Positions 24,634-41,957 of a DNA stretch of 59,362 bases are shown piece after piece. How positions within the stretch are numbered: the stretch's first letter is position 1; each line of letters opens with the position of its first letter. Under the pieces are notes generated by a model. That model had not been told where the DNA came from and made no database searches. It saw only the letters and a list, made by a program, of their open reading frames with translations. The translations under genes were made by a program, and so were the position numbers. The stretch is from a virus (Duplodnaviria > Caudoviricetes), in the IMG/VR virus record IMGVR_UViG_3300030106_002463, positions 1-59,362 of that record; one strand, given 5' to 3'.

Positions 24634-24635
24634 GC

Positions 24636-24953
24636 ATGGCTATTCTTTTTAAGGACGGTGTGTCGATAAATGGGGTCAAGCCTGAGTTGGTTCTCGGGCT
24701 ACAGATCGCCGACGGGTACTTCTCCGACAAGGGGATACCCAACATGATCGTAACGTCCATGACTGACGGAGATCACTCTACTGGGTCTCTTCATTACGTT
24801 GGCTACGCAGCCGACCTCAGGATATGGGCGATACAGAAAGAGCATTTGGCTGAGTTCACAGAGGGCTTAGCTTTAAGACTGGGAGAAGAGTTTGATGTGG
24901 TTCTTGAGGCAACTCATATCCACATGGAATTCCAACCCAAACACAATAGGTGA
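24636..24953 (+). CDS. Endolysin, peptidase M15-like Zn peptidase
   Basis: VTS..DG.H...SLHYVGYAADLR...HIH motif; first gene of the lysis cassette. Confidence 0.8.
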   Translation: MAILFKDGVSINGVKPELVLGLQIADGYFSDKGIPNMIVTSMTDGDHSTGSLHYVGYAADLRIWAIQKEHLAEFTEGLALRLGEEFDVVLEATHIHMEFQPKHNR

Positions 24954-24957
24954 ATAA

Positions 24958-25134
24958 ATGGATTGGATTCTCGCTAACGCTGGTAACGTGATTGATATTG
25001 CACTCAAGCTTGTCGGAGCTTTCGCTGTCGTTGCAACGATGACTCCTAACGAGTCTGACAACAACGTCGCTGACGGGTTAATGCGACTTATCAATATGCT
25101 TGGTGCAAACTTTGGCAAGGCCAATAACGCATAA
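24958..25134 (+). CDS. Putative holin (58 aa, below the ORF-track cutoff)
   Basis: MDWILANAGNVIDIALKLVGAFAVVATMTPNESDNNVADGLMRLINMLGANFGKANNA*; hydrophobic, between endolysin and spanins. Confidence 0.65.
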   Translation: MDWILANAGNVIDIALKLVGAFAVVATMTPNESDNNVADGLMRLINMLGANFGKANNA

Positions 25135-25409
25135 TGATTGAGTCTCTTCTGATATTTTTCTTCATCTTCCTTTTCGTAGTCGTCATTGTCCTCCTCTGGG
25201 GGAGGAGTAAGGAGCGTGTCGGAAGGATGGATGCGGAAAATTTAATATTAGAAAAGAGATCGGAGAGGCTATCCCGTGGCGTCGAAAAACTTATGGGGCC
25301 TCGTCCTACTCGTCGTGTTCTTATCAAGCATTGGGAGCGCCGGTTGCGCCAAGCGACCGGAGGTAATCCTGATACCCCCCTGCCCGACTCCAAACCTAGA
25401 AACGATTAG
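25134..25409 (+). CDS. i-spanin (Rz-like)
   Basis: N-terminal transmembrane segment followed by a charged helical region. Confidence 0.7.
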   Translation: MIESLLIFFFIFLFVVVIVLLWGRSKERVGRMDAENLILEKRSERLSRGVEKLMGPRPTRRVLIKHWERRLRQATGGNPDTPLPDSKPRND

Positions 25410-25503
25410 GTCTCTCAGGGAAGATGAGATACCAGATGCGATACTTGAATATCTTATAGACATAGATATGTATTGCTCTGCTGTCGATTATGTCCGTGAG
25501 TGA
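25276..25503 (+). CDS. o-spanin lipoprotein (Rz1-like), overlapping the i-spanin
   Basis: Signal peptide with lipobox SAGC, Pro-rich PPCPTP, alternate frame overlapping the i-spanin 3' half. Confidence 0.75.
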   Translation: MASKNLWGLVLLVVFLSSIGSAGCAKRPEVILIPPCPTPNLETIRSLREDEIPDAILEYLIDIDMYCSAVDYVRE

Positions 25504-25511
25504 ACAAGGAG

Positions 25512-25536
25512 GCCCCTGCGAAAGCGGGGGCTTTTT
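25512..25536 (+). terminator. Intrinsic terminator-like hairpin at the end of the late/lysis operon
   Basis: GCCCCTGC-GAAA-GCGGGGGC followed by TTTTT. Confidence 0.75.
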
Positions 25537-25538
25537 AT

Positions 25539-26408
25539 ATGGCAGACAGAGATCGAGTGACTGAAGAGAAGGTCAGGAGAGACATTCATCAACTGAAGCC
25601 TCCCCCGCCCTACAAGAGAGCATCAAAGAAGCCTTCATTGGGAAAGACAATACTCGTTGTACCGGACAGTCATGCAAAGCCTGGGATATCTAATCACAGG
25701 TTTGAATGGCTTGGGAGATTAGCAGTAGACAAGAGGCCAGATTACATCGTCAATCTCGGCGACTTGTGGGACATGCACTCTCTCAATTCATTCGATAAGC
25801 CGGGGAGCAAGTCCTTCAACGGCGCAAGCTACTGGAAGGACATCGACATCGGCCTTGATGCGATGCTTCGATTTCACTTGCAAATCGAGTCATACAACAA
25901 GGGGCGCAAGAAAGACAAGTACAATCCCAAGAAGATTTTCTGCATAGGGAATCATGAAAACAGAATAAACAAGTTCATAGAGTCTGAGCCTAGATTTGAA
26001 GAGATCATATCCCTAGATGATCTAAGGCTTGGAGAGCTTGGCTGGGAAGAGGTTCCTTTCCTTGCGATCAAGAAGATTGAGGGATGTTCCTTTTCTCATT
26101 ATTTCACGTCTGGGGTTATGGGGAGACCTATTGCTGGGATGCACCAAGCCGCCAGCCTGCTCACAAAGCAGTTCGGAACCTGCATCCAAGGGCACACCCA
26201 CACCTTCGACCACTCAGTCAGAACAGACAGTGGGGGGAAAGACCTACACGGGCTAGTCGCTGGGTGTTACTTCGAACACTCAGAGTCGTGGGCTGGACCG
26301 GCTAACCAGATGTGGAGGAGGGGTGTTTGCTTGCTCCATAACGTCAAGGCAGGCGACTTCGATGTCGAATGGATCGGAATGGAGCGGATCAAAGCAACGT
26401 ACTCCTAA
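25539..26408 (+). CDS. Calcineurin-like metallophosphoesterase
   Basis: PDSH, LGD, GNHE, SH and GHTH motifs; start could alternatively be the GTG at 25500. Confidence 0.88.
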   Translation: MADRDRVTEEKVRRDIHQLKPPPPYKRASKKPSLGKTILVVPDSHAKPGISNHRFEWLGRLAVDKRPDYIVNLGDLWDMHSLNSFDKPGSKSFNGASYWKDIDIGLDAMLRFHLQIESYNKGRKKDKYNPKKIFCIGNHENRINKFIESEPRFEEIISLDDLRLGELGWEEVPFLAIKKIEGCSFSHYFTSGVMGRPIAGMHQAASLLTKQFGTCIQGHTHTFDHSVRTDSGGKDLHGLVAGCYFEHSESWAGPANQMWRRGVCLLHNVKAGDFDVEWIGMERIKATYS

Positions 26409-26760
26409 GGTTCTTTCTAAAAGAGATAGGCTTCACCAGATCCATAGGTGGCTTATCTATGAGTTCAAAAGAAAGTCTAGGCTTCGCGTAGAGAAGCTTC
26501 CCAAAGCAGAGAAAGATTGCCTCGGATACGTCGAGATCGGATCGGGCGTACCCTTGATAAGAGTAAGTAAATTCTTATCAAGGAGTGAGTCTATCTCTGT
26601 CCTTCTGCACGAATACTCCCACGTCCTATCCCATTACGAACACGGCCCCCATTGGAATCGATCCTACGGGGGCCACGACAAACAATTCTATTCAATACTT
26701 TGTAACGTAGAAAACAGGTACTTTTATGACAGTGGAAATGTTGAAAGTCAGGACTTCTGA
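26323..26760 (+). CDS. HExxH Zn metallopeptidase-like (SprT/IrrE-like) protein; true start probably downstream
   Basis: LLHEYSH...GHDKQF. Confidence 0.6.
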   Translation: MFACSITSRQATSMSNGSEWSGSKQRTPKVLSKRDRLHQIHRWLIYEFKRKSRLRVEKLPKAEKDCLGYVEIGSGVPLIRVSKFLSRSESISVLLHEYSHVLSHYEHGPHWNRSYGGHDKQFYSILCNVENRYFYDSGNVESQDF

Positions 26761-26941
26761 CAAGGGATCTTTAGCTAAGTTATACCAAGCTAAGATATGC
26801 CTGACTAACGCGGAAGGGTTTCTCGCCTCCGAGGAGGTGGAGCAGGCTTTAGGGGAGAGCCTGTATTACGAGGTCCGAAAGGAATTGCAGAACCTCATGA
26901 AAGGGATCGACGTAAGCTTAAGGATTGCAGAGAAACGGTAG
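26726..26941 (+). CDS. Hypothetical protein
   Basis: Continues the operon; ends at the convergent tRNA 3' end. Confidence 0.5.
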   Translation: MTVEMLKVRTSDKGSLAKLYQAKICLTNAEGFLASEEVEQALGESLYYEVRKELQNLMKGIDVSLRIAEKR

Positions 26942-27012
26942 GCTCGCCGGGACTCGAACCCGGAACCACCCGCTTATAAGACGGGCACTCTAACCAGTTG
27001 AGCTACGAGCCC
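26939..27012 (-). tRNA. tRNA-Ile (anticodon TAT, reads AUA)
   Basis: Reverse complement GGGCTCGTAGCTCAACTGGTTAGAGTG-CCCGT-CTTATAA-GCGGG-TGGTTCCGGGTTCGAGTCCCGGCGAGCCTA folds as a cloverleaf; followed by CCG rather than CCA. Confidence 0.93.
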
Positions 27013-27024
27013 ACTTCTCATACT

Positions 27025-27204
27025 TTACTTAACCATTCTTTCCACAGCAGTCCGGATCAGGTGCGACATGGAAACATCCTGTCGCTTAGCCAGAGTGCGG
27101 AGCTTTTTAATATCAGCCTTAGGAAGAAGAAGCGTAAAGCTTCGGGCGCTCCCCGGCTTGAAGATACTGGGTCGGCCCTTCTTGTTGGTCGTCTTGCTAG
27201 GCAT
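27025..27204 (-). CDS. Ribbon-helix-helix (CopG-like) DNA-binding protein, 59 aa (below the ORF-track cutoff)
   Basis: MPSKTTNKKGRPSIFKPGSARSFTLLLPKADIKKLRTLAKRQDVSMSHLIRTAVERMVK*. Confidence 0.75.
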   Translation of the reverse strand: MPSKTTNKKGRPSIFKPGSARSFTLLLPKADIKKLRTLAKRQDVSMSHLIRTAVERMVK

Positions 27205-27450
27205 TTACTTTCCTTTTCTTTCAGCTATGGAGATTCTTCTCTCCAAGTAGAAAATAGCTTTTCCTACGTCTTCGATAAGAGAGATACTTTCTCCCTTTCT
27301 TCCTGCTCTTGAAATGTATTTGAGAGCGTTACCAAGGTGGTAGTCAAGCTCCCAATCCTCTATCACCTTTACTGGTTCATAGATCCTTCCCTCCGTGTAG
27401 TGAGCAGGGTTCTTCACGGAGTCAAACTTTCTACTCAAATCGGTACTCAC
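27205..27450 (-). CDS. DUF3310-family (T7 gp1.7/SaV-like) protein
   Basis: VKNPAHY...LGNALKYISRAGRKG...EDVGKAIFYLER. Confidence 0.85.
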   Translation of the reverse strand: MSTDLSRKFDSVKNPAHYTEGRIYEPVKVIEDWELDYHLGNALKYISRAGRKGESISLIEDVGKAIFYLERRISIAERKGK

Positions 27451-27928
27451 TTACAATTTCTTCCAGTCTTTCAACAGCTTCAGGGTTTCTCTTCAGCTCA
27501 GATCTGGATTCGAACCCAACCAGATCCTTCAGGATCCACAGGCAAATTTGCTCGCCCGTAAGGTCTTTGTCGAAGACTGTTCCTTCCTTGCCGTACCTGT
27601 TTATAAGCCAAGCCGAGAACTCTTCGGGCTCACTCCTGCACAGCATGGATACGATAGAGCCAATCTTGGTAGCTCTCTTGATGTCCTGAGGCTCGACGGG
27701 TTGGTCGCTCTCGGCCTCCATCTGAACCAGGGCGCAAGCGAATCTTGTGTTCGGTTGCTGGAGCATGAGGGATCTCACCCTAGATGCTTCAATCGATTTA
27801 GCTGGAGAGTTATGGGGGTTATCAAGAATGTCTTCAGGGTTTATCCGAAGAACAATCTTGTGACCGCCGGAGCTAGTCATGCTGGCCGAGACTAGTTGGG
27901 CTTCGAACTTGATTGCGATGTCTTCCAT
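27431..27928 (-). CDS. Hypothetical protein
   Basis: Overlapping operon member, 165 aa. Confidence 0.65.
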   Translation of the reverse strand: MEDIAIKFEAQLVSASMTSSGGHKIVLRINPEDILDNPHNSPAKSIEASRVRSLMLQQPNTRFACALVQMEAESDQPVEPQDIKRATKIGSIVSMLCRSEPEEFSAWLINRYGKEGTVFDKDLTGEQICLWILKDLVGFESRSELKRNPEAVERLEEIVSEYRFE

Positions 27929-28191
27929 TCTTCAAACTTTTCCGAAGACCACTCCATCGGATCAATGCCGTACTTAATCCAGAAGTTGATCTCTCTTCCA
28001 TGTGTGTGACAGAGCGTGTGGTCAGTTCTACAGAGAGGGACGGCTAGATCATCTCCGCATCTCTTCATGCCCATCCCGCTCAGAGTTCCTGTAACGGAGT
28101 ATCTGGGGTGGTGAGCATCGGCTCCGTCAGAGCCGCACACTAGACAAGCGTGCGACCTGACGAAGCGTAGATACTCTTCAGACTTGAACAT
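27892..28191 (-). CDS. DUF968/HNH-like Zn-finger protein
   Basis: YLRFVRS..CLVCG....AHH...GMGMK..DD.AVPLCR.DH...H; start refined to MFKSEE. Confidence 0.75.
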   Translation of the reverse strand: MFKSEEYLRFVRSHACLVCGSDGADAHHPRYSVTGTLSGMGMKRCGDDLAVPLCRTDHTLCHTHGREINFWIKYGIDPMEWSSEKFEEWKTSQSSSKPN

Positions 28192-28199
28192 GAAGAGTT

Positions 28200-28586
28200 C
28201 TAGAAGTCGATGTCGCCAAAGCTTTCGTCGCTCGTAGGCGAAGTATCGGGGGCGCTCGGCGCTTCCTTCGAAGGCGCAGGCCGAGAGGTGGACCCTCCTC
28301 CTCCGGTGCCACGGTTGGAAGAACGCCATGAGTTGTCCTCCAAGGTCATCGAGAAGTACGGCTGACCAGTCTCGTCGTCGAGTCGCTTCCAGACAGCGAC
28401 GTTAATGTAAGTCTCCTTACGCTCGCTGAACTCGGAGGCAAGGTTCTTAAGCCACTGTGCTGCGTCCCTGTTCTTCTCATCGGAACGCTGACCAGTCCAA
28501 CCCCCAACCTTGATCGCGCCCCGAAGGTCGGGCTGCTTGTCGTGGGACTTATCGTTCTTGCGAATGTTACCGTGTACCTTAGCCAT
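28200..28586 (-). CDS. Putative single-stranded DNA-binding protein
   Basis: KQPDLRG and VAVWK motifs, G/P-rich linker and acidic C-terminal tip DIDF; adjacent to the recombinase. Confidence 0.7.
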   Translation of the reverse strand: MAKVHGNIRKNDKSHDKQPDLRGAIKVGGWTGQRSDEKNRDAAQWLKNLASEFSERKETYINVAVWKRLDDETGQPYFSMTLEDNSWRSSNRGTGGGGSTSRPAPSKEAPSAPDTSPTSDESFGDIDF

Positions 28587-29265
28587 GAATCTTCTCCTCG
28601 ATTCTCTTAAGTGCGCTTCCGCGCTTTTTGAAAATGTTGGCAACGAAAAGCGCCGCCTCGGAATCCTCTTCCTTTAGTTCATCAACTACACCCTTATTGT
28701 CGGAGTAGTATGTCTTGAGTTCCTTGAAGGTCGTTGCGGAAGTGAAGAGGGCCAGCAAGAGATTCGCTTTCGGATTTGCGTAAGTCCTGTAGTGAAGCTC
28801 AACGAGGGTGTAGATCTCTTCGTCTGCTTCTTTCGTGAATCTCTTGTTGCTCGTTGCGAAAGACTTGCTCTCAAGGATCCCATCGTCGTAGAGATATCTC
28901 CCGACTCCGAACTGCACGGCAGCACGCTTCAGCGCATCACTGTACATCCCCTTCTCACCTTCGAATGTGGACTGAGTACCCACGTCAGACTTGTGTACCC
29001 ATCCCCATCCGTTGAATGAAACGCTTAGCTTGCAGACGCATCGAGTCTCAAGGTCAATATATTCAGTAGTCCACCTACCGATACCAAAGACCTCATCGAG
29101 TCTATCCATAACGTCCCTTGCATCTAGATACAGAAGGGCGGAAGACTTGTTCCCGTTAAAGTTAGAGGCTCTCCACTTAATTTGATTGGGAGAGAACGGA
29201 GCCTTCAGTTGCTTCTCTAAGATTTCAAAGGTCGCGTCGTCAGACTCTTCAGTTTTCGCGGTCAT
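28579..29265 (-). CDS. Rad52/Sak-family ssDNA annealing recombinase
   Basis: LKAPF...IKWR...YLDARDVMDRLDEVFG...KGMYSDALKRAAVQFGVGRYLY. Confidence 0.9.
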   Translation of the reverse strand: MTAKTEESDDATFEILEKQLKAPFSPNQIKWRASNFNGNKSSALLYLDARDVMDRLDEVFGIGRWTTEYIDLETRCVCKLSVSFNGWGWVHKSDVGTQSTFEGEKGMYSDALKRAAVQFGVGRYLYDDGILESKSFATSNKRFTKEADEEIYTLVELHYRTYANPKANLLLALFTSATTFKELKTYYSDNKGVVDELKEEDSEAALFVANIFKKRGSALKRIEEKIHG

Positions 29266-30127
29266 TCAGGAACCCCTTATGAATGTTACAAATATCGTTA
29301 AATGGGCAATAGCTTTTGCATCTGCGATAGCTATCAAATGTTTTGTCGATAACTGACCAGATCTGATCTTCGCCACTCAACTTATCGAAATAGGAGTTAG
29401 CTTTAGTCTTAGTCTGGAAGAGTTTCTTTTCTTCAGAGTTCATGTTGTAGACAGAGTAGACAGTTCCTCCGGGCCAACGTCCCTCATGCGAGCAGGCAGG
29501 GAGGTCATCATCCGGCAGGCTCGCAGCATCCTGCAACGCTTTGATCCGGTCACGGATGAACTGCTCCCTCTCCTCGTAGGGCCACAGAGGGATCTTGATC
29601 GTTACGCCTGGGGTCTTCGGGTAGTTGGTCATCTTCTCGGCCATAGAAATCTTCCAGTCCCGTAGGAATGCGTAGATCTGTAGCCCTTCGACTTCCCTAT
29701 CCGTACAAGTCTCGATGAGCCAAGCGTAGATGTTTAGCTGCTGCTCAAACTTAGTGGTGTCCTTGATGGCAAATACAGTAGTCATCTTATAGTCACCAAT
29801 GGTAACCTTGTTACCAGAGACAACCTGAACATCCATCGCCCCAGAGATTGTTACCCCATCGACCTCGGCGAACAGCCGCTCTTCTGCTATCTCTCCCTCA
29901 GGGGAGTTCTTCTCCATGAGGCTATGGAAGATTGTGCTGACAAACTTCCACGGATTCTCATACGGATCATCAACTATCAGATCGGAATGTCTTTCGTTGA
30001 AATGAACAACTCGGACCTCATCGATCAGTTGAGTGGCGGAGTAATCTGCCTTGCCTCGGGAGTATTCGTCGTTTGAACAGAAAGCAATAAACGACGCCGG
30101 GGCGTTGTGGTTATTCACAATTTTCAT
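29249..30127 (-). CDS. PD-(D/E)XK exonuclease (recombination partner)
   Basis: YSAT, E.RL, ISGAMD...DYK, QLNIY and C-terminal C..YC....C. Confidence 0.8.
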   Translation of the reverse strand: MKIVNNHNAPASFIAFCSNDEYSRGKADYSATQLIDEVRVVHFNERHSDLIVDDPYENPWKFVSTIFHSLMEKNSPEGEIAEERLFAEVDGVTISGAMDVQVVSGNKVTIGDYKMTTVFAIKDTTKFEQQLNIYAWLIETCTDREVEGLQIYAFLRDWKISMAEKMTNYPKTPGVTIKIPLWPYEEREQFIRDRIKALQDAASLPDDDLPACSHEGRWPGGTVYSVYNMNSEEKKLFQTKTKANSYFDKLSGEDQIWSVIDKTFDSYRRCKSYCPFNDICNIHKGFLNDREN

Positions 30128-30149
30128 TGGTTCCCTTTCCAATGGCGCA

Positions 30150-30177
30150 ATCATAAATCGGATCTTGGATATGTCAA
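30150..30177 (-). promoter_or_regulatory. Sigma70-type promoter of the leftward recombination operon
   Basis: Minus strand TTGACA-16 nt-TATGAT; overlaps the start of the divergent RusA gene. Confidence 0.55.
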
Positions 30178-30551
30178 CAGATAAATCGATTGAAATATGG
30201 GATCAGGTAATACTCGGCGAGCCAGCCAGTAAAGCGAATAGCAGGAGGCTGGTAACTATCGGCGGAAAGCCCCGTGTTATCAAGTCGAAGAAGGCGCTAG
30301 AATATTCCAAGCACTTTGAACAGCAAGCCCGACCTCCGGCTGAACCCATAACCGGAGATGTGAAACTGGCCGTAACGATATGGTACGCAACGAGAAGACC
30401 GGATCTGGATCCAAGCTTAATCATGGATCTCCTACAGAAAGTAGGGGTGATCGAGAACGATCGGCAGATCAAGGAGATACACGCCGTTCACGACTTGGAC
30501 AAGGAGAACCCGAGGGCGGCGATAAGGATAACGAAGCTCACCGCAGACTAG
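30171..30551 (+). CDS. rusA: RusA-like Holliday junction resolvase
   Basis: GEPASKANSR...RRPDLD...DLLQ..GVIENDRQI...NPR. Confidence 0.8.
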   Translation: MSTDKSIEIWDQVILGEPASKANSRRLVTIGGKPRVIKSKKALEYSKHFEQQARPPAEPITGDVKLAVTIWYATRRPDLDPSLIMDLLQKVGVIENDRQIKEIHAVHDLDKENPRAAIRITKLTAD

Positions 30552-30781
30552 CAGCGGCCATAATCCTACAGTCCCTCAAGGATATGTGTCAGGATTCTGA
30601 CACCTTCGGATCTGATATCCTTGATTGGTCTTCGACCGATGCCTTCAGCGAAGTATGCCTTCGGGCTGGCATGAAACCCGAAGAAGTCCATGAACTAATC
30701 CAAGAACTTCATTCCCTGCCGACGAGAGTCCGCAGGGAATTTTTGCTTAATCGTCTGAAAAGGAAAGGGAAGACTAGGTGA
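30380..30781 (+). CDS. Hypothetical protein (true start probably downstream)
   Basis: RRLAAAIILQSLKD helical domain follows RusA. Confidence 0.55.
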   Translation: MVRNEKTGSGSKLNHGSPTESRGDRERSADQGDTRRSRLGQGEPEGGDKDNEAHRRLAAAIILQSLKDMCQDSDTFGSDILDWSSTDAFSEVCLRAGMKPEEVHELIQELHSLPTRVRREFLLNRLKRKGKTR

Positions 30782-30971
30782 GGGAGAGGAGAGGAAAGGG
30801 ATACTCTCCTCTCCCTCGGAGGAGCCAAGGGGCAGGCTCACTTTTTTATTCCTATGTCTTGCGAGGATCTTCTAGATCCTATAGGAACTAGATTCTCTCA
30901 GAGGAGAATCATATCGGCTATAGGATTCTATAGCCTGTGAGAAGCGAGCTTGTCAAGGGGGGAAATTCTTT

Positions 30972-32729
30972 GTGTCTGCCATAAAAAATTTAGTAGAGTC
31001 GCAATTCGATCTGCAACCAGCCGGAACTAAAAGCTTTATCTGCCCGGAGTGTTCTTCGGAAAGAAAGGGGTCGAATCGCAACAGTCGTTGCCTCCGGGTG
31101 ACGTTCGAAGAGGAAGCCGCAGTTTGGTTCTGTCACAACTGCGAAGAGAAAGGGCAAGTAAACATGGCGCGAACAGAGCCTAGAGAGAGAGTAATGAGAA
31201 CTGCACCCACCTTCACACCAGCCAGCGAGGATCTAATTCAACAAGTTTTCTCGGCTAGATCTATCAATTCGGATCAGATCTCTGAGCAGACGAAGAAGTC
31301 GATCTTGTTTTCGGATGATGTTTACTTCACTTCCATTGGCGGCAAGGACAAGTCGATCGGCTTTTCGTATGCTGATGGGGCTATTAAGTGGAGAGCAGTT
31401 GACAGCAAAGCGTACACCCAGACTGGTGTATGCCGATCCTTATTCCCTGACATGCCGCTGGGTGACATGGTGGTACTCGTCGAGGGAGAGTTCGATGCTC
31501 TCGCTCTTAGGTCTTGCGGGTACGACGCCTTCTCCGTCCCTGCTGGCGCGAACATCGGCAAGTCGAGTGACGCCCCGCCTTTCCTGAAGCCTGTGCTGGA
31601 GGCTCTTGAGGAAGACAGAATCGATGTTGTCGTTGCTGTCGATGCCGACGAGAAGGGTAAGGACTTTCAGGAAAAGCTTCTCGGGTTCCTCGGAAGGCGT
31701 CGAGTCGGAGTCATTGACTGGTCGAAGTACGGAGTCAAAGACGCAAACGAATGTCTGCAAACGCACGGTGATGTCGGCATCAAGAACGCTTTCCAAGAAG
31801 TAGAGAACATTCTCTACGAAGGGATCGTGAGAGCAAGCTCTGTTGCTACGACGATTAGCGACATCCGTATCGGCGGCTTCAAAGGTGGAGCGAAGATTGG
31901 TATCCCGTCTGTCGATAAGCTCATGACGATCTGCTCGGATCAGGTGTCAGTCGTTACTGGCGTCCCCGGCTCCGGTAAGTCCGAGTTCATAGACTTTGCA
32001 ATGGTCAGTCTCGCCATGAGAGAGGATTGGAAGTTCGCAATATTTTCGGCAGAGAATCCTATCGAAATACACGCTGGCAAGCTGATCGAGAAGTACGCCG
32101 GGAAGCCCTTGTTCGAAGGGGCCGTGATGAGCGAGGAGGATCTTGAAGAGAGTGCTGAATGGCTTGATCGGCACTTCTTCTTCCTCGACCCATCGTCATC
32201 CCATACGATTGAGTCGATCCTCCAGCGGGCTGCGATCCTCGTAGAGAACGAGGGTGTCAACGGGCTTGTGATCGACCCGTTCAACTACACCGACGTTGCT
32301 CTAGAAACGGATGCGATCAACACGATGCTTACGCGGCTCCATGCATTCGCGAAGCAGTATCACATTCACATCTGGATCGTGGCTCATCCTCAGAAGATGT
32401 ACCGAGGAGAGGGCGGTAAGCTCCCGACGCCGGGAGGCATGGATATCTCTGGCTCAGCAGCGTGGTTCGCGAAGGCAGACTTCGGAGTCACGGTATCCAG
32501 AGACGAGAACGGGGATACCTTCGTCGTTGTATGGAAGGTCCGGTTCAAGTGGCTCGGCGAGACGGGATCTGCACATCTCAAGTACGATCCGACTTGCGGC
32601 AGATACTCTGAGGGTATCAGCATTGATGATATTGCTGACACCTTGGGAGACCTGTCGAGTTCGTTCGTCGATGAGGAGGACAAGGATGGCAGCGAAAAAG
32701 AAGACTCGTCAGACCTCTTCGATATCTGA
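30972..32729 (+). CDS. Primase-helicase (Zn-binding domain, TOPRIM, DnaB/Twinkle-like helicase)
   Basis: CPEC...CHNC; VEGEFD, DAD and KDANE; Walker A GVPGSGKS; IDPFN, VAHP and DISGS. Confidence 0.95.
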   Translation: MSAIKNLVESQFDLQPAGTKSFICPECSSERKGSNRNSRCLRVTFEEEAAVWFCHNCEEKGQVNMARTEPRERVMRTAPTFTPASEDLIQQVFSARSINSDQISEQTKKSILFSDDVYFTSIGGKDKSIGFSYADGAIKWRAVDSKAYTQTGVCRSLFPDMPLGDMVVLVEGEFDALALRSCGYDAFSVPAGANIGKSSDAPPFLKPVLEALEEDRIDVVVAVDADEKGKDFQEKLLGFLGRRRVGVIDWSKYGVKDANECLQTHGDVGIKNAFQEVENILYEGIVRASSVATTISDIRIGGFKGGAKIGIPSVDKLMTICSDQVSVVTGVPGSGKSEFIDFAMVSLAMREDWKFAIFSAENPIEIHAGKLIEKYAGKPLFEGAVMSEEDLEESAEWLDRHFFFLDPSSSHTIESILQRAAILVENEGVNGLVIDPFNYTDVALETDAINTMLTRLHAFAKQYHIHIWIVAHPQKMYRGEGGKLPTPGGMDISGSAAWFAKADFGVTVSRDENGDTFVVVWKVRFKWLGETGSAHLKYDPTCGRYSEGISIDDIADTLGDLSSSFVDEEDKDGSEKEDSSDLFDI

Positions 32730-33171
32730 TTACCCTCTGCTCGTTGAGTCGGGCACGGAGGAATACAGAAAGAAGAAGAGAATTGAGCTTGAGAGGATTG
32801 ACTCTCGCGGGATCTTCCGACGGGCAAGAGTCGTAGACCAGACTGTTTTTGACAGACTGTTCATACAAGAAAAGATAACCCGCCAGCAGTTCTCTGCTGC
32901 CGAGATGTATCTGGAAATGATGGGGATAGCTGGGTGCTTCCTCCGATCCCCTTCGATGAAGGGGTCGGAGAAAGTCACCGGCAGGGATGTGGGTGGGAAT
33001 ATCTCTGCAAAGATTATGGTTATATCTAGAGCGAGAGACAGTCTCCGGGAAGCCGGGGAGGGGGCTCTTATTGCTGTCGAGTCATGCCTGGGGCACGATC
33101 GAGAAGTTGACCTAGCCTTTCTGAAGCTTGGTCTAGATGCTCTTGCTCGACACTTTCGAATAGATCGATGA
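32686..33171 (+). CDS. Hypothetical regulator (possible late-gene activator/antiterminator)
   Basis: Start refined to MAAKKK after GGAGG; DRL....IT..QF.AA motif; sits at the end of the replication operon. Confidence 0.45.
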   Translation: MAAKKKTRQTSSISDYPLLVESGTEEYRKKKRIELERIDSRGIFRRARVVDQTVFDRLFIQEKITRQQFSAAEMYLEMMGIAGCFLRSPSMKGSEKVTGRDVGGNISAKIMVISRARDSLREAGEGALIAVESCLGHDREVDLAFLKLGLDALARHFRIDR

Positions 33172-33325
33172 GGCTTTTCTGATCCTTGGTCTTGGCGTAC
33201 TTGTCGAGAGCTTTTGCTATGCCCTTTTCGTTTATAAACTCAATGACCTCGTTCAGTTCTTCTAAGAACTCAAGCCATTCCTTGTCGCTCGCATCAAGGT
33301 CTATCTTCATTTGAATTGTAGACAT
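33068..33325 (-). CDS. Hypothetical protein
   Basis: AGAAAGGA Shine-Dalgarno; 85 aa. Confidence 0.6.
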   Translation of the reverse strand: MSTIQMKIDLDASDKEWLEFLEELNEVIEFINEKGIAKALDKYAKTKDQKSLIDLFESVEQEHLDQASERLGQLLDRAPGMTRQQ

Positions 33326-33431
33326 CTCGGAAGTTCCTTTCTGAGTTTTCGTCGGCTATCGAAGCCGCCCTACACAGGGCTAAAGCAAACAACAATCCTA
33401 AACACCATAGCGTAAACAATAAGAATTTCAT
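33294..33431 (-). CDS. 45-aa membrane peptide (below the ORF-track cutoff)
   Basis: MKFLLFTLWCLGLLFALALCRAASIADENSERNFRDVYNSNEDRP*; fills the gap in the operon. Confidence 0.5.
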   Translation of the reverse strand: MKFLLFTLWCLGLLFALALCRAASIADENSERNFRDVYNSNEDRP

Positions 33432-33432
33432 T

Positions 33433-33741
33433 TCAAACGATAAAACTTTCAATCGCTGAAAATATTCTCAGTCGAGCATCAGTGTCAGGATTAGTTTCTT
33501 TTATCACCGAATAGGCTTCGGATAGACTGAAAACGGCGCTTTGCCTGCACCATCTTTTTCTATCTGTCCTAAGTCCGCTCTCTGTGGATTGATAAACATG
33601 GCGGGAGGCATCGCCGAGATGTTCTCTAACTATCGAGTAAACATCCTGCGTCATCTCCTCATTTTTCTGAAGGAGGAAGATCTCATTCTTCGCCATGTTG
33701 ATGTAATCCTTTGCCCTCTCAATTCGTTCTTCAATCCTCAT
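33433..33741 (-). CDS. Hypothetical protein
   Basis: AGAAAGGAG Shine-Dalgarno; 102 aa. Confidence 0.65.
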   Translation of the reverse strand: MRIEERIERAKDYINMAKNEIFLLQKNEEMTQDVYSIVREHLGDASRHVYQSTESGLRTDRKRWCRQSAVFSLSEAYSVIKETNPDTDARLRIFSAIESFIV

Positions 33742-33922
33742 TTTACATTCTCCTTTCTTGAGTTCTGGAGTCCCCGCCCCCCGTCACGGGGGCGGCATCT
33801 CCTGAAGGCAGGGCCTTGCGCTACATCGCCCTAACTGCTTGTCGTGACGGACTCACAGGACTGGCGCAGCCGGTATGACTACCTGCACAGTGGTTGACAG
33901 TAGTTGCACATATACTAGACGG

Positions 33923-34006
33923 TGTCGGGTGCGGGGGTCGAACCCGCATGACCTAACGGTCGGGAGATTTTAAGTCTCCTGTGTATACCAATTCCACCAA
34001 CCCGAC
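33923..34006 (-). tRNA. tRNA-Leu (anticodon TAA, reads UUA)
   Basis: Reverse complement GTCGGGTTGGTGGAATTGGTATACACA-GGAGA-CTTAAAA-TCTCC, long variable arm, GCGGGTTCGACCCCCGC-ACCCGACA. Confidence 0.93.
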
Positions 34007-34398
34007 TAAAGCAAATCCTTCTCGATCTTGTTCGCGATCCTCTTGAATGACCATCCCTTGTCGTTCAACTCAGCAAGCTCCTGTGCGTAAGCAACACCGA
34101 GACCCATCTCAGTGAGAATTTTTAGGCTTGGGAAGGATGTTGTATCCGAACATCCCCAGCCTTTCTTATCGGCATAGCTAGGCATGGCGAACTCTTCATG
34201 AGGATCAATGCTCCACACAACCCAGTTTTTATGCTGGATCCAATCACCTTCAACAATGATGTCGCAAGCCACTCCCAAGCAGCAGTAGTCGCAGTCACCG
34301 CTGATCTCATCTTCCTTGCAAAGATTTGATTTGCCCTGCTGATAGTCACCAGAGCGGAGTGCTTTCACCCATTTCTTTACGTCAGACTTCTTCATCAC
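34006..34398 (-). CDS. Conserved phage hypothetical protein between two tRNAs
   Basis: KKWVKALRSGDYQQG...YCCLGVAC...LAELND.G.SF..IA..IE. Confidence 0.75.
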   Translation of the reverse strand: MMKKSDVKKWVKALRSGDYQQGKSNLCKEDEISGDCDYCCLGVACDIIVEGDWIQHKNWVVWSIDPHEEFAMPSYADKKGWGCSDTTSFPSLKILTEMGLGVAYAQELAELNDKGWSFKRIANKIEKDLL

Positions 34399-34413
34399 AT
34401 CCTTTCTTGTAAG

Positions 34414-34490
34414 TGGCGCACCCGGCAGGATTCGAACCTGCGACCCGCTGCTTAGAAGGCAGCCGCTCTATCCAACTGAGCTACGGGTGC
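34414..34490 (-). tRNA. tRNA-Arg (anticodon TCT, reads AGA)
   Basis: Reverse complement GCACCCGTAGCTCAGTTGGATAGAGCG-GCTGC-CTTCTAA-GCAGC-GGGTCGCAGGTTCGAATCCTGCCGGGTGCGCCA; CCA encoded. Confidence 0.96.
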
Positions 34491-34650
34491 TTTCAAATGG
34501 TTTTAATTGCAGAGTCAGCAACGTATCAATTCGATCCAAAACATCTTCGATGTCTTTGCAGAAGAATTGATCTCCGCTTACTACAAGAAAACCGTTTGCA
34601 ATCTTCCTGACTCTCAACTGAAAGTCGTCGTCTTTATTGTGTGTAGACAT
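34468..34650 (-). CDS. Small hypothetical protein whose 3' end runs into tRNA-Arg
   Basis: Start overlaps upstream stop (TAATG). Confidence 0.45.
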   Translation of the reverse strand: MSTHNKDDDFQLRVRKIANGFLVVSGDQFFCKDIEDVLDRIDTLLTLQLKPFESTRSSVG

Positions 34651-34826
34651 TACTTCTTCTCCCCTTCAATAAATCCCAAGCGCGCAGGAATAACCACAAA
34701 GGAATTGCATACATCACAGCACCGCCCCTCGTTTACGGGTTCAGCGTTGTGCCCCAGATCCCAGCCGGTCAGCGGGTTCCTTTCGATCTCGCTGCTACAA
34801 ACCGAACACTTCATTTCAGTACCCAT
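34650..34826 (-). CDS. Small Zn-ribbon protein
   Basis: CSVC...GHNAEPV..GRCCDVCN..VIPARL; AGAAAGG Shine-Dalgarno before MGTEMK. Confidence 0.7.
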   Translation of the reverse strand: MGTEMKCSVCSSEIERNPLTGWDLGHNAEPVNEGRCCDVCNSFVVIPARLGFIEGEKK

Positions 34827-34938
34827 CCTTTCTTTCTTTCCCTCCTTCTCATTCCCGTCTGCGCGCACCGCTGACCAACTTGCCGCCCAGCTCACGCTGG
34901 TTTCTTTTTCCGATACCATATAAATCCTATCTTTTAAA

Positions 34939-35115
34939 TCAGTACCCATCCTTAAACCATCCACTCCCCTTTAGAGTGAATGAAGTTTTGCTGATTAGTC
35001 TCTTGGCTTTAGCTCTGCACTTCTTCTCGATACAAGTCTTCAAGGGTTCATCCTTGATAGACTGATAGACTGAGAACTCATGCCCCTTGGTGCATTGGTA
35101 GTCGTACTTAGGCAA
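34939..35115 (-). CDS. FmdB-family zinc-ribbon protein (58 aa, TTG start, below the ORF-track cutoff)
   Basis: MPKYDYQCTKGHEF...TCIEKKC...RLISKTSFTLKGSGWFKDGY*; AGGAG Shine-Dalgarno. Confidence 0.85.
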   Translation of the reverse strand: MPKYDYQCTKGHEFSVYQSIKDEPLKTCIEKKCRAKAKRLISKTSFTLKGSGWFKDGY

Positions 35116-37452: not shown

Positions 37453-38814
37453 TTAGTTTGCCTCTACCCGGATGGATCGACCGAAGTCACGGGGCGTAGC
37501 CCACCAGCCACCACGTCGCTGGGGAACCTCGACCCAAAGCACCGGCACACCCGGATCATTCGGGCATCGGAAGAACTCCATGTCAGAGATAACGATAATC
37601 CCGTTGACCTCAAGGTTCTCTTCGACGTACCGGAGAGCCATGTCGATGTCAGTCCCACCGGCAGCCCGCCGCCCCACCTGTGCAGGGAACTCGACCCCCT
37701 GCTCGTAGGAATCGCACGATACGATCCGGTGGTCGAAGACTACGACGTGAGCCATCGAAGGCTGAGCCACGTCAACGATTGACTTGGTTTCCTCAAGTGC
37801 GAGATCGAACATCGCCATGTCCATCGACCCGGAGGAGTCCACGAGGATCGCAATCTCCTCGGACTCCGGGATAACCGAAGGCATGTGAATGCCCATCGAT
37901 GCGTACCGCTTGTTGGGCTTCGTCCAACTCAAGTACCCATCGAATCCGGTCATCGCTTGCTCCACAAAGTCAGCAAGCTCAGCCCGCCAGTCTACGCGAG
38001 ACTTGGCAGCGATATCTCGGACGTGATTCTCGATAGATTCGGGAAGCTTCCCGCTGAGAGAAGCCGATGCCAGCGCGTTTTCCTGACGGATCGTATCCTC
38101 GAATTCAGCATCGCTGATTTCCTCAGGAGTCAACTCGCCGGGATCGACAACCTCGCCCCACTCGCTGATATCCGGCACCTCGTAGTCCTCGATGCCAGAG
38201 ACCTGTTCGCCTCGGTTCAGCCCCTCGTCCTTTCCGATAGGCTGTTCGTCAGAATCCTCCTCGTCTTCAGCATTCTCTCCTTCGGGCTCGCTCGGCTGGT
38301 CGGGCTTGTCCACACCGATGGACCCACCTCCCGGCGGTCCTTCGGGCTCGCCGTCCTCGCAAGGCTTACCCCCCGGCCCTTCGGGCTCCTCCACCTGAAT
38401 GTCCTTCAGGTAACGATAGATCTGCTCCATCGTCATCTCTGCAAACTGCGGATCGCAGAGTGCGTTATCGAGGATCGGGACGTTCGCCTTCTTAAGAAGG
38501 TTGTTCGCCTCCTGATCGGTAGCCTGCTGAACCAACTCCTTATCCTCAAGCTTGATGGATCGGGAGAAGTGCTTCAGGAAGACGTGCGCCCACTCGTGAA
38601 GCACAACGAACTCGACTTGGAAAGCATCGAGAGCGTTGATGAAGTGGGGGTTAACCCACATCGTGTTGCCATCAGTAGCAGCAGTCTTCACGTTGGTAGT
38701 CACGACGACACGCATCTTCGACACGTCGCCTTCGATCATCGGGAAGTCCAGCATTGCATGGATCTTCCCTCGATCCACCTTATCCATAATGTCATCGACC
38801 TTGATCGAATCCAT
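37453..38814 (-). CDS. HExxH metallopeptidase plus vWA domain protein (DUF2201-like)
   Basis: TAATDG, VLHEWAH, acidic linker, MIDAS DSSGSM, GGTD, ISD; start refined to MDSIK after GAAAGGGG. Confidence 0.88.
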   Translation of the reverse strand: MDSIKVDDIMDKVDRGKIHAMLDFPMIEGDVSKMRVVVTTNVKTAATDGNTMWVNPHFINALDAFQVEFVVLHEWAHVFLKHFSRSIKLEDKELVQQATDQEANNLLKKANVPILDNALCDPQFAEMTMEQIYRYLKDIQVEEPEGPGGKPCEDGEPEGPPGGGSIGVDKPDQPSEPEGENAEDEEDSDEQPIGKDEGLNRGEQVSGIEDYEVPDISEWGEVVDPGELTPEEISDAEFEDTIRQENALASASLSGKLPESIENHVRDIAAKSRVDWRAELADFVEQAMTGFDGYLSWTKPNKRYASMGIHMPSVIPESEEIAILVDSSGSMDMAMFDLALEETKSIVDVAQPSMAHVVVFDHRIVSCDSYEQGVEFPAQVGRRAAGGTDIDMALRYVEENLEVNGIIVISDMEFFRCPNDPGVPVLWVEVPQRRGGWWATPRDFGRSIRVEAN

Positions 38815-41100: not shown

Positions 41101-41108
41101 CTCACGAT

Positions 41109-41375: not shown

Positions 41376-41382
41376 CCCTCTC

Positions 41383-41955: not shown

Positions 41956-41957
41956 TT

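What the first reader, a model, noticed from the sequence alone, without database searches (positions are those of the whole stretch)
26939..34490. tRNA trio for AUA, UUA and AGA matches codons avoided by early genes and used by late genes
Seen: the only three tRNAs I found are Ile(UAU), Leu(UAA) and Arg(UCU). Reading all 361 codons of the early AAA ATPase (39763-40848) by hand gave zero AGA, ATA or TTA, and the first ~90 codons of the vWA gene also had none. The late gene 46-618 has 10 in 190 codons (6 AGA, 3 ATA, 1 TTA), and the MCP has AGA at codon 5. Established: these are typically among the rarest codons in GC-rich bacteria, and UUA/tRNA-Leu gating is known from Streptomyces bldA. All three tRNAs lie at the distal ends of leftward early/middle operons. 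Inference: a translational timer in which late proteins are made efficiently only after phage tRNAs accumulate, which may also redirect ribosomes to phage mRNA. A few small early ORFs do contain ATA or AGA, so the avoidance is not absolute.
Basis: partly seen in the sequence, partly recalled or inferred. Interest (0 to 1): 0.82.

Follow-up and report, generated by a model that had tools for sequence, protein, structure and literature searches.

The report
Three phage tRNAs serve late genes
A 59-kb marine-type phage carries three tRNAs that read exactly the three codons its earliest genes avoid and its late structural genes use freely. This is a very clean example of a known phage habit of topping up the host's tRNA supply, and a translational clock is not shown.

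Summary
The window is a whole 59,362-bp phage genome with exactly three tRNAs: Ile-UAU, Leu-UAA and Arg-UCU. AGA+ATA+TTA make up 622 of 12,973 late codons (4.8%). They make up 14 of 1,700 codons (0.8%) in the promoter-rich early tier, and 0 of about 1,100 codons in three consecutive early genes. Within synonymous families these three codons rank 1-3 of 59 for late-versus-early enrichment. Other A-ending codons do not shift alike. The late effect survives a GC3 covariate (odds ratio 2.6, p=4e-7).

The timer reading is only partly supported:
- The late block has lower GC3 than the early blocks in all 5 relatives examined, and 4 of those have no tRNA found.
- The codons are spread over 38 of 39 late genes, with no clustering at gene starts.
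- The major capsid gene itself avoids them (4 of 303 codons).
- The host is unknown, and the phage is 50% GC, not GC-rich.

The trio is conserved, with compensatory stem changes, in a close clade of metagenomic relatives. More distant relatives lack it.

Best reading: T4-style codon compensation, adapted to the infection schedule. This is a new member of a known kind.

The parts
26937..27012 (-). tRNA-Ile, anticodon UAU (reads AUA). It is the last element of the leftward 27-30 kb block, 13 nt after ORF 27025-27204, and abuts the end of the convergent late ORF 26726-26941.
   Evidence: ARAGORN. Rfam 68.8 bits. The same site holds tRNA-Ile(tat) in 14 of 15 close relatives that reach it. Compensatory anticodon-stem changes and an invariant anticodon loop.
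33921..34006 (-). tRNA-Leu, anticodon UAA (reads UUA). Its first base is the last base of the stop codon of ORF 34006-34395.
   Evidence: (54.5 bits). Conserved in L119, L122, L123, L124, L126 and L001, with compensatory changes in the acceptor and anticodon stems.
34414..34490 (-). tRNA-Arg, anticodon UCU (reads AGA). It overlaps the last 23 nt of ORF 34468-34650, and the next ORF starts 16 nt downstream.
   Evidence: (72.7 bits). Mean column identity is 99% across 5 copies: the window, L119, L124, L127 and L001.
38828..46309 (-). Early tier: 12 ORFs, most with their own sigma-70-type promoter (GGGTTGACAA-R-GGGG, 17 nt, TGnTAnnnT) and a near-identical leader ACGAAAGGGGTTCA. Almost free of AGA/ATA/TTA.
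   Evidence: Motif search: 13 of 14 matches lie on the - strand between 39748 and 46309, and 0 of 100 shuffles reach 14 matches. Leader motif. Sequence. Consensus scan. Trio codons 14 of 1,700, or 6 of 1,590 without ORF 45472-45807.
39763..40845 (-). Early ATPase, with 0 AGA/ATA/TTA codons.
   Evidence: phrog_1297 ATPase, E=3e-46. No Pfam hit. 0 of 359 codons. The L001 ortholog has 2 of 359.
37453..38814 (-). The true start is ATG 38814, and the gene has 0 trio codons.
   Evidence: Pfam PF13203 and PF09967. RBS and start. 0 of 452 codons.
33068..35115 (-). Distal segment of the leftward block, downstream of a 13-bp GC-rich hairpin (35136-35164). It holds six small ORFs plus tRNA-Arg and tRNA-Leu. 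Trio usage is intermediate.
   Evidence: Hairpin. Sequence. 17 of 533 codons, 3.2%.
27025..30154 (-). Leftward recombination/DNA-metabolism block (exonuclease, Rad52-like) that ends in tRNA-Ile. AGA is used at the late level, while ATA and TTA are rare.
   Evidence: phrog_2139 exonuclease. PF04098 Rad52. AGA 24, ATA 6, TTA 1 in 1,100 codons.
30972..32729 (+). Primase/helicase (middle function), with intermediate trio usage.
   Evidence: phrog_239. 17 of 584 codons.
46447..59362 (+). First part of the late block: large terminase, portal, head genes, MCP at 53211-54125, and downstream small ORFs.
   Evidence: phrog_38 TerL, phrog_1216 portal, phrog_371 major head. Per-gene counts.
1..26941 (+). 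Second part of the late block: tail and fibre-size genes and the 3,256-aa polyvalent protein at 14863-24633, which alone holds 180 trio codons.
   Evidence: ORF list. PF18857 LPD38 and PF00293 NUDIX. Counts.
53211..54125 (+). Major capsid protein, a late gene that nevertheless avoids the three codons.
   Evidence: phrog_371 and PF25209. 4 of 303 codons, P(<=4)=0.001 at the late rate. The G001 ortholog has 0 of 301.

Best explanation
Codon compensation fitted to the infection schedule, as in phage T4.

In this phage family the structural (late) module is AT-richer at synonymous sites than the early and middle modules. In the sub-lineage of this window, the earliest genes are written almost without AGA, AUA and UUA. 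These genes are driven by an array of host-type sigma-70 promoters and must be translated by the untouched host. That is what one expects if the host decodes these three codons poorly.

Three tRNAs reading just these codons sit inside the leftward pre-late operons, packed against ORFs and apparently without promoters of their own. They would therefore be made and processed during the early-to-middle period. They then supplement the host pool when about 13,000 late codons per genome copy have to be translated in bulk. About 620 of those are AGA/AUA/UUA, and 180 sit in one giant protein.

The match in time would come from each gene class adapting to the tRNA pool present when it is expressed. 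It need not reflect a gate.

Shown: the tRNAs, their conservation, the codon partition and its independence from GC3. Inferred: their co-transcription and timing, host scarcity of the cognate tRNAs, and any effect on yield.
For: 1. Exactly three tRNAs. Their cognate codons are ranks 1-3 of 59 by late-versus-early lnOR: TTA 1.83, ATA 1.22, AGA 1.17. After GC3 adjustment they rank 1, 3 and 4.
2. The late effect given GC3 is b=0.96, p=3.7e-7.
3. Within the same codon box, TTA:TTG is 138:109 late against 9:47 non-late. AAA:AAG, GAA:GAG and CGA:CGG barely move.
4. Stepwise gradient: 0.8%, 1.5%, about 3%, 4.8%. It is robust to start-site choice.
5. The MCP, which should be under the strongest translational selection, avoids the codons in this phage (4 of 303) and in G001 (0 of 301). 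This suggests the codons stay suboptimal and the tRNAs are a remedy.
6. tRNA content tracks the codon partition across relatives.
   - G001 has only tRNA-Ile(UAU). ATA is its most late-enriched A-ending codon (lnOR 0.92), while AGA (-0.00) and TTA (0.43) are not enriched.
   - The pooled GC3-adjusted late effect is 0.96 (0.76 with automatic calls) in this genome. It is 0.43, 0.22, 0.22, 0.08 and -0.10 in the five relatives.
7. The tRNAs are under purifying selection. The anticodon loops are invariant, the stems show compensatory changes, and the trio is kept in relatives whose flanking proteins are only 58-91% identical.
8. Early-gene avoidance is conserved in relative L001, which carries tRNA-Leu and tRNA-Arg: 4 of 1,082 codons at a lower GC3 of 0.56-0.60.
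9. T4 carries decoders for the same three codons among its eight tRNAs.
10. The codon-usage-bias hypothesis and a late-gene bias of phage tRNAs are in print (PMC12482277, abstract and Introduction read; PMC13015707, passages).
Against: 1. The host is unknown, so the key premise (these codons and their tRNAs are scarce in the host) is untested. It rests only on the phage's own early genes and MCP.
2. G003 has similar GC (50.2%) and no tRNA found (CheckV 95% complete). It uses the trio in late genes at about the same rate (4.35% against 4.79%), so the tRNAs are not indispensable for such usage.
3. The comparison across relatives has one trio-bearing complete genome against five others. The relatives' genes came from a crude longest-ORF caller.
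4. AGA is already used at the late level in the 27-30 kb leftward block (24 of 1,100) and in the primase gene (11 of 584). The partition is therefore not strictly early against late for AGA.
5. No expression data exist for the tRNAs or the genes of this phage.
Confidence: 0.6

Rival explanations
1. Translational timer or licence. Late proteins cannot be made efficiently until the phage tRNAs have built up, so the tRNAs set when late translation begins. They might also favour phage over host mRNAs.
For: - Near-total absence of the three codons from the promoter-rich early tier: 6 to 14 of about 1,600-1,700 codons. Three consecutive genes have 0 of about 1,100.
- The codons occur in 38 of 39 late genes.
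- The tRNAs sit in the distal parts of the leftward operons, behind a strong hairpin at 35136-35164 in the case of Arg and Leu. This would delay their appearance.
- The partition goes beyond GC3.
Against: - The codons are dispersed (about 620) and are not concentrated in a few control genes or at gene starts (49 of 1,170 against 573 of 11,803, p=0.35).
- The MCP largely lacks them.
- Late genes lie on the other strand in their own block, so transcription can already time them.
- A comparable split exists in G003, where no tRNA was found, and late GC3 is below early GC3 in all 5 relatives.
- Middle genes already use AGA at the late level.
- All three are ordinary sense codons that any host must decode, so a hard gate is unlikely (established knowledge, not tested here).
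Confidence: 0.12
2. Replacement of host tRNAs that are lost during infection. Loss could come from host shut-off and genome degradation ('all-destructive' model) or from host anticodon nucleases (nuclease-escape model). The phage copies keep late translation going.
For: - Both models are in print and predict a late-gene bias (PMC12482277 Introduction; PMC13015707 passage).
- The phage encodes an exonuclease and a Rad52-like protein.
- tRNA-Arg(UCU)-like genes occur in 1,844 phage records, so this species is widely useful to phages.
Against: - Three tRNAs for the least-used codons cannot replace a decaying pool. The commonest late codons have no phage tRNA.
- Early-gene avoidance is not predicted by these models.
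- The anticodon loops are canonical and invariant across relatives. Comparison with host tRNAs was impossible.
- No anticodon nuclease target is known here.
Confidence: 0.13
3. No functional link. The early/late difference is a compositional legacy of module exchange or mutation bias, and the tRNAs are hitch-hikers or aids for switching between hosts of different GC.
For: - Late GC3 is below early GC3 in all 5 relatives, 4 of them with no tRNA found.
- GC of relatives spans 32-50%, so host shifts have occurred.
- AGA and TTA also rank high for late enrichment in G003, where no tRNA was found (ranks 2 and 3).
- The tRNA sites vary. The Leu/Arg order is swapped in L119 and L001. G001 has its tRNA-Ile elsewhere and on the other strand.
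Against: - The effect persists after the GC3 covariate and is largest in the trio-bearing genome.
- Even among the 14 A-ending synonymous codons alone, the chance that three given codons take the top three places is 1 in 364 (arithmetic).
- The tRNAs are conserved with compensatory changes while their neighbours diverge.
- G001's single tRNA matches its single strongly partitioned trio codon.
Confidence: 0.1

Closest known systems
Phage T4 tRNA cluster (eight tRNAs)
   Same: T4 carries decoders for the same three codons: Arg(tct), Leu(taa) and the gene annotated tRNA-Ile. In both phages the tRNAs lie among small ORFs on the strand of pre-late genes. From recall, not from a call: T4 tRNAs are linked to codons common in T4 late genes and rare in E. 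coli, and their deletion lowers burst size on some hosts.
   Different: - Three tRNAs here, not eight, and at two sites 7 kb apart rather than in one cluster.
- Ile uses a genomic UAU anticodon, whereas T4's reads CAT (called 'Met' by ARAGORN). By established knowledge this implies lysidine modification.
- The phage is a 59-kb relative of HTVC023P-type phages, not a myovirus.
- tRNA-Leu is only 87-90% identical over 62 nt to those of T4-like phages.
Codon-usage-bias and late-gene models of phage tRNAs (Shigella phage Sf14; a vibriophage cited there)
   Same: Phage tRNAs fit late or structural gene codon usage better than early-gene usage (PMC12482277, abstract and Introduction). Early and late genes differ in codon usage in half of 14 phages studied (PMC5683454, abstract only).
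   Different: Those phages carry about 20 or more tRNAs that can replace the host pool. Here a minimal set of three covers only the rarest AT-rich codons, and the early-gene avoidance is close to absolute.
Streptomyces bldA (tRNA-Leu-UAA) developmental gate
   Same: A UUA-reading tRNA, and a class of genes free of the codon (recalled knowledge, no call).
   Different: By recall, bldA targets are a limited set of genes, many regulatory, in a host of over 70% GC with one UUA decoder. Here about 620 codons of three kinds are spread over 38 of 39 late genes. Uniqueness of the decoder and late accumulation are untested.
HTVC023P-type pelagiphage group (HTVC023P, HTVC027P, phage 023Pt_psg01, DSL-LC04)
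   Same: - TerL is 52-57% identical.
- Gene order matches in the IMG/VR relatives G001-G005, which carry the same TerL family (TerL 67-82% identical): late block, giant protein, convergent exonuclease block, primase/helicase, ATPase and vWA. Gene order in the named pelagiphages themselves was not compared.
- Temporal early, middle and late classes were shown by RNA-seq for HTVC027P (PMC12753301, section 12).
   Different: - The isolates are 30-35% GC and have no tRNAs (preprint 10.1101/2019.12.14.876532, passage). In my scan, 0 of 5 named relatives have a tRNA.
- This phage is 50% GC and carries three.
- The gene-by-gene timing table of HTVC027P is in a supplement I could not open.

Membership tests
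Phage tRNA codon compensation (codon-usage-bias hypothesis) | Intact, conserved tRNA genes in the phage genome | tested here: met
   Conservation with compensatory stem changes.
Phage tRNA codon compensation (codon-usage-bias hypothesis) | Cognate codons are used more by the phage (or its late genes) than mutation bias alone explains | tested here: met
   Ranks 1-3 of 59. GC3-adjusted b=0.96, p=3.7e-7. GC3-adjusted ranks 1, 3 and 4.
Phage tRNA codon compensation (codon-usage-bias hypothesis) | Cognate codons are rare, and cognate tRNAs scarce, in the host | not testable with these tools
   Host unknown. TerL relatives sit in MAG bins labelled with nine different taxa. tRNA similarity gives no host signal. 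The only proxies are early genes and the MCP avoiding the codons.
Phage tRNA codon compensation (codon-usage-bias hypothesis) | Across relatives, carrying a tRNA goes with use of its codon | tested here: inconclusive
   The direction is as predicted (G001; pooled effect). But only 6 genomes were compared, gene calls were crude, and there was no phylogenetic control. G003, with no tRNA found, uses the trio at 4.35% in late genes.
bldA-type translational gate or timer | The codon is absent from genes expressed before the switch | tested here: met
   6 to 14 of about 1,600-1,700 early-tier codons. 0 of about 1,100 in three large early genes.
bldA-type translational gate or timer | The codon is confined to a limited set of switch-controlled targets | tested here: not met
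   622 codons in 38 of 39 late genes, with no clustering at gene starts. Also present in middle genes.
bldA-type translational gate or timer | The tRNA is the limiting or sole decoder and accumulates late | not testable with these tools
   No host genome and no tRNA expression data. Position in the distal parts of the leftward operons is the only hint.
T4-type phage tRNA set | Decoders for AGA, AUA and UUA are present | tested here: met
   Window. T4 locus.
T4-type phage tRNA set | tRNAs form one contiguous cluster processed from a common transcript | tested here: not met
   Two sites: 26.9 kb and 33.9-34.5 kb, with an ORF between Arg and Leu.
Anticodon-nuclease escape tRNAs | The anticodon loop differs from the host isoacceptor so as to resist cleavage | not testable with these tools
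   Host tRNAs are unknown. The loops are canonical (CU-UAU-AA, CU-UAA-AA, CU-UCU-AA) and invariant in 10 of 11, 7 of 7 and 5 of 5 aligned copies. The 11th is the CAU variant in L127.
HTVC023P-type phage group | Shared TerL lineage and conserved module order | tested here: met
   TerL is 52-57% identical to four named members or relatives. Synteny with the five IMG/VR relatives G001-G005. Genus-level membership was not tested. No DNA polymerase gene was looked for.

The most novel reading that the evidence does not exclude
The three tRNAs act as a translational licence. By being placed at the far ends of the pre-late operons they accumulate with a delay. Because nearly every late gene (38 of 39) needs them while the host-promoter-driven early genes need none, they would couple the onset and rate of virion protein synthesis to completion of the middle programme. 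This would be a second timing layer on top of transcription, built from only three tRNAs, in one of the ocean's most abundant phage groups.
Probability: 0.12. Interest if true: 0.65.

Novelty: new member of a known kind. Interest (0 to 1): 0.35.

Why it matters
The case is unusually clean and minimal. There are three tRNAs and three codons. The early tier is close to a codon-free control. Natural comparators carry one tRNA (G001), two (L001, a fragment) or none found.

That makes the clade a good system for separating 'compensation' from 'timing' in phage tRNA biology. The question has been open since T4 (four competing hypotheses are listed in PMC12482277).

It also shows that a higher-GC branch related to the tRNA-free HTVC023P-type pelagiphages has acquired tRNAs. 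Once host genomes can be screened, the early-gene codon signature may help to find the unknown host.

The principle itself is already in the literature, so the finding extends a known kind and does not open a new one.

Tried and rejected
- Host by relatives. The only genome-contig scan, with TerL, gave 10 loci at 51-68% identity in MAG bins labelled Bacteroidetes, Nanopelagicales, Rhodoluna, Saccharibacteria, Burkholderiales, Terrimicrobiaceae, Hyphomicrobium, Anaerolinea and Actinomycetota. These look like mis-binned phage contigs and give no host call.
- Host by tRNA similarity.
  - tRNA-Leu is 87-90% identical to those of T4-like phages of Enterobacterales.
  - tRNA-Arg is at most 89.6% identical to tRNAs of phages of many phyla.
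  - tRNA-Ile has no match above 83%, and its best matches are other tRNA species.
  - None of this gives a host signal.
- No near-identical phage record appeared in the phage collection.
- Automatic RBS-based start refinement is plausible for the early and middle genes. For several late genes it is clearly unreliable (for example, it drops 228 codons from 2417-4369). I used it only as a robustness check, and the tier percentages hardly move.
- My first count for the vWA gene (5 trio codons) came from a spurious 5' extension of the longest ORF. A first correction used a start one base off frame and was discarded. The right start gives 0.
- The TerL-upstream flanks of 16 close relatives gave a weaker contrast: 66 of 2,256 early-side codons against 959 of 22,105 late codons. 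Only 7 of the 16 loci had any early-side ORF, and these are the ORFs next to TerL, which include the homolog of the outlier 45472-45807.
- Supplementary Table S3 of PMC12753301 (gene-by-gene timing in HTVC027P) could not be opened. It could confirm or change the early/middle/late assignment, which I took from strand, function and promoters.
- I did not use the look-up of sequencing runs, read laying, structure prediction, complex prediction or the large protein searches. None bears on the question as it stands.

Full report
**What the window is.** The window is the whole assembly: one contig of 59,362 bp with 50.4% GC.

The ORF layout shows one long rightward block, 46447 to the end and on from 1 to 26941. 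It holds large terminase, portal, major head protein, tail-size genes and a 3,256-aa protein with NUDIX and LPD38 domains.

Between its two ends lie three further units:
- a leftward block 27025-30154 (exonuclease, Rad52-like);
- a rightward primase/helicase gene, 30972-32729;
- a long leftward block 33068-46361 of mostly small ORFs, which also holds an ATPase (39763-40845) and a DUF2201/VWA-like protein (37453-38814).

The nearest named phages by TerL are seawater phage 023Pt_psg01, Pelagibacter phages HTVC027P and HTVC023P, and lake phage DSL-LC04, at 52-57% identity. Gene order matches five large IMG/VR relatives.

**The tRNAs.** ARAGORN finds exactly three, all on the - strand: Ile(tat) 26937-27012, Leu(taa) 33921-34006 and Arg(tct) 34414-34490. 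Rfam confirms them at 68.8, 54.5 and 72.7 bits against a cut-off of 29.

They are packed into the leftward operons:
- tRNA-Arg overlaps the last 23 nt of the upstream ORF.
- tRNA-Leu begins on the last base of the stop codon of ORF 34006-34395.
- tRNA-Ile follows the last ORF of its block by 13 nt.

The consensus scan lists no promoter-like site in front of any of them, so co-transcription with the neighbouring ORFs is the natural inference. It is not shown. A 13-bp GC-rich hairpin at 35136-35164 precedes the segment that holds Arg and Leu.

**The early tier.** A search for the motif GGGTTGACAA-R-GGGG gives 14 matches. Thirteen are on the - strand between 39748 and 46309, and 0 of 100 shuffles reach 14. 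Each motif is followed at 17 nt by TGnTAnnnT. Most are then followed by a near-identical leader, ACGAAAGGGGTTCA, just before the start codon.

This is an array of strong host-type (sigma-70, extended -10) promoters, roughly one per gene. It is the signature of genes read by the unmodified host at the start of infection.

The late label for the rightward block rests on function. RNA-seq in the relative HTVC027P shows early, middle and late classes, with early genes of unknown function (PMC12753301, section 12). Its gene table is in a supplement I could not open.

**Checking the observation.**
- ATPase: 0 of 360 codons.
- ORF 46-618: 6 AGA, 3 ATA, 1 TTA in 189 codons.
- MCP codon 5 is AGA.

Over a hand-checked list of 73 genes, AGA+ATA+TTA counts are as follows:

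| Gene class | Trio codons | Share |
|---|---|---|
| Late block | 622 of 12,973 | 4.79% |
| Leftward block 33-46 kb | 48 of 3,380 | 1.42% |
| Leftward block 27-30 kb | 31 of 1,100 | 2.8% |
| Primase/helicase | 17 of 584 | 2.9% |

Split by position, the usage rises in steps:

| Tier | Trio codons | Share |
|---|---|---|
| Promoter-array early tier | 14 of 1,700 | 0.82% |
| Same, without outlier ORF 45472-45807 | 6 of 1,590 | 0.38% |
| 35251-38886 | 17 of 1,147 | 1.5% |
| Segment holding tRNA-Arg and tRNA-Leu | 17 of 533 | 3.2% |
| Late block | 622 of 12,973 | 4.8% |

With RBS-supported starts, three consecutive early genes have none in about 1,100 codons: the ATPase, 38828-39706 and the vWA-like gene. 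The Fisher test for the early tier against late gives p=4e-19.

**Is it only GC3?** No.

GC3 does differ: 0.50 in the late block against 0.59-0.62 in the other three classes. But within synonymous families the late-versus-non-late log odds ratios are TTA 1.83, ATA 1.22 and AGA 1.17. These are the top three of 59 codons, and TTT follows at 1.16.

The other A-ending codons scatter from +0.58 (GTA) to -0.99 (CGA). Within one codon box:
- TTA:TTG is 138:109 late against 9:47 non-late.
- AAA:AAG is 170:453 against 74:280.
- CGA:CGG is 81:59 against 83:63.

A per-gene binomial model, with GC3 of all other codons as covariate, keeps a late effect of b=0.96 (odds ratio 2.6, quasi-F p=3.7e-7). Each codon is also significant alone. 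In GC3-matched strata, late genes always use more. In the top GC3 stratum, for example, the trio makes up 18 of 113 Arg+Ile+Leu codons in late genes against 22 of 477 in the others. Fitted codon by codon, the GC3-adjusted late effect ranks TTA 1, AGA 3 and ATA 4, with CAG at 2.

**What speaks against a timer.**
1. The codons are everywhere in the late block (38 of 39 genes). They are not enriched in the first 30 codons (49 of 1,170 against 573 of 11,803, p=0.35). A gate of the bldA kind works through a limited target set.
2. The MCP, the protein made in the largest amount, has only 4 in 303 codons (P=0.001 at the late rate). Its ortholog in G001 has 0 of 301. The simplest reading is that the codons remain slow even with phage tRNAs present.
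3. The compositional split is a family trait. In all five large relatives, late GC3 is below that of the early and middle blocks, and four of the five have no tRNA found.
4. G003 (50.2% GC, no tRNA found, 95% complete by CheckV) shows nearly the same gene-level pattern: ATPase 4 of 389 and vWA 6 of 469, against TerL 15 of 502 and portal 30 of 823. Its late-block usage is 4.35%.
5. AGA is already at the late level in the middle genes.

**What links the tRNAs to the codons.** The census of tRNAs in relatives is as follows.
- 0 of 5 named relatives have a tRNA.
- 1 of 5 large IMG/VR relatives has one.
- 0 of 5 partial IMG/VR relatives have one.

The one exception, G001 (TerL 82%, complete with terminal repeats), has a single tRNA-Ile(UAU), at another site and on the other strand. 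In G001, ATA is the most late-enriched A-ending codon (lnOR 0.92). AGA (-0.00) and TTA (0.43) are not enriched.

The close clade was found with the 302-aa late protein as anchor: 16 loci at 78-91% identity. Within it:
- 14 of the 15 loci that reach the site carry tRNA-Ile(tat) in the same place. The 15th, L127, carries a CAU-anticodon tRNA there.
- L119 and L124 show all three tRNAs.
- L122, L123 and L126 show Ile and Leu before the locus ends.
- L127 shows Arg but no Leu in the 2.5 kb beyond it.

L001 (ATPase 76% identical) has Leu and Arg.

Alignments show invariant anticodon loops and compensatory changes in the anticodon and acceptor stems, while neighbouring proteins are 58-91% identical. 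In L001 the three early orthologs have 4 trio codons in 1,082, at GC3 of only 0.56-0.60.

The pooled GC3-adjusted late effect is 0.96 here (0.76 with the same crude gene calls as the relatives). In the five relatives it is 0.43 (G003, p=0.013), 0.22, 0.22, 0.08 and -0.10.

**Reading.** The late module of this family is AT-richer at silent sites whatever the host. In the lineage of this window the earliest genes and the capsid gene avoid AGA, AUA and UUA strongly. I take this as the imprint of a host that decodes them poorly. The lineage has acquired and kept tRNAs for just these three codons, made from the pre-late operons.

This is the codon-usage-bias explanation in its late-gene form. The literature lists it with three rivals (PMC12482277, Introduction; PMC13015707, passage; PMC5683454, abstract).

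The T4 set contains decoders for the same three codons. T4's Ile gene reads CAT, like the L127 variant here.

A strict timer is not excluded, but it has the points above against it. The host-loss and nuclease-escape models do not predict early-gene avoidance, and three rare-codon tRNAs cannot replace a whole pool.

**Limits.**
- The host is unknown, so 'rare in the host' is inference.
- There are no expression data for this phage.
- The cross-genome comparison has one complete trio-bearing genome, crude ORF calls for the relatives and no phylogenetic control.
- Gene timing is assigned from promoters, strand and function.

**Novelty.** Searches turned up no description of tRNAs in HTVC023P-type phages. 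The preprint on the isolates states that none of its 10 pelagiphages has a tRNA.

The instance is therefore new, and it is neat: three tRNAs, three codons and a near-zero early control. The principle is established, so I file it as a new member of a known kind, of moderate interest.

Noticed in passing
window 39748-46309 (- strand): An array of about 12 near-identical strong sigma-70-type promoters (GGGTTGACAA-R-GGGG, 17 nt, TGnTAnnnT). Most are followed by the same leader, ACGAAAGGGGTTCA, and a start codon, giving roughly one promoter per small early gene. The degree of repetition is unusual.
   Followed up: partly
window 43541-43605 (- strand); L004:903-967 (-): A type II hammerhead ribozyme match (45.9 bits, cut-off 37) lies between two early genes. 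A second match (47.3 bits) lies in the early-side flank of a close relative. A self-cleaving RNA inside an early phage transcript.
   Followed up: partly
window 59024-59362 and 1-618 (+): ORF 59024-59362 runs open to the end of the contig (113 codons exactly). Frame 1 is open from base 1 to 618. If the genome is circular or permuted, they join in frame into one 318-aa gene. The extra 128 codons hold 5 more AGA.
   Followed up: partly
L127:2888-2963 (-): At the conserved tRNA-Ile site, one close relative carries a tRNA with a CAU anticodon instead of UAU. It is most like the tRNA-Ile of G001. T4's annotated tRNA-Ile also reads CAT. This suggests AUA decoding supplied by either route.
   Followed up: partly
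L119:9069-9796; L001:7078-7805; window 33921-34490: The order of tRNA-Arg and tRNA-Leu is swapped in L119 and L001 compared with the window and L124. In G001 the single tRNA-Ile lies in the other leftward block and on the opposite strand. The tRNAs move about within the clade.
   Followed up: no
G001 (L085), about 49.6-55.6 kb: Where the giant polyvalent protein should lie, the record of the closest complete relative shows no long ORF on the expected strand, only small ORFs. The C-terminal 252 aa at 70-828 do match the giant protein. Possible causes are a fragmented gene, assembly errors or something else. Not examined.
   Followed up: no
window 14863-24633 (+): The 3,256-aa protein at the end of the late block has a NUDIX domain (residues 2196-2280) and LPD38 (2951-3126), the make-up of a 'large polyvalent protein'. 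It carries 180 of the 622 late trio codons.
   Followed up: no
window, whole gene set: After GC3 adjustment, the second strongest late-enriched codon is CAG over CAA (b=1.08, z=6.8). No phage tRNA explains this.
   Followed up: no
window 45472-45807 (-): An outlier in the early block, with 8 trio codons in 110. Its homolog in G001 lies on the opposite strand relative to TerL. The adjoining 44.6-45.5 kb has no convincing leftward ORF, and 45.2-45.4 kb is AT-rich.
   Followed up: no
window, non-late genes: Early and middle genes favour CGA/CGG for Arg, CTC for Leu, GTC, ATC, TTC, AAG and GGG. If early genes mirror the host's tRNA pool, this signature could be used to screen candidate hosts.
   Followed up: no
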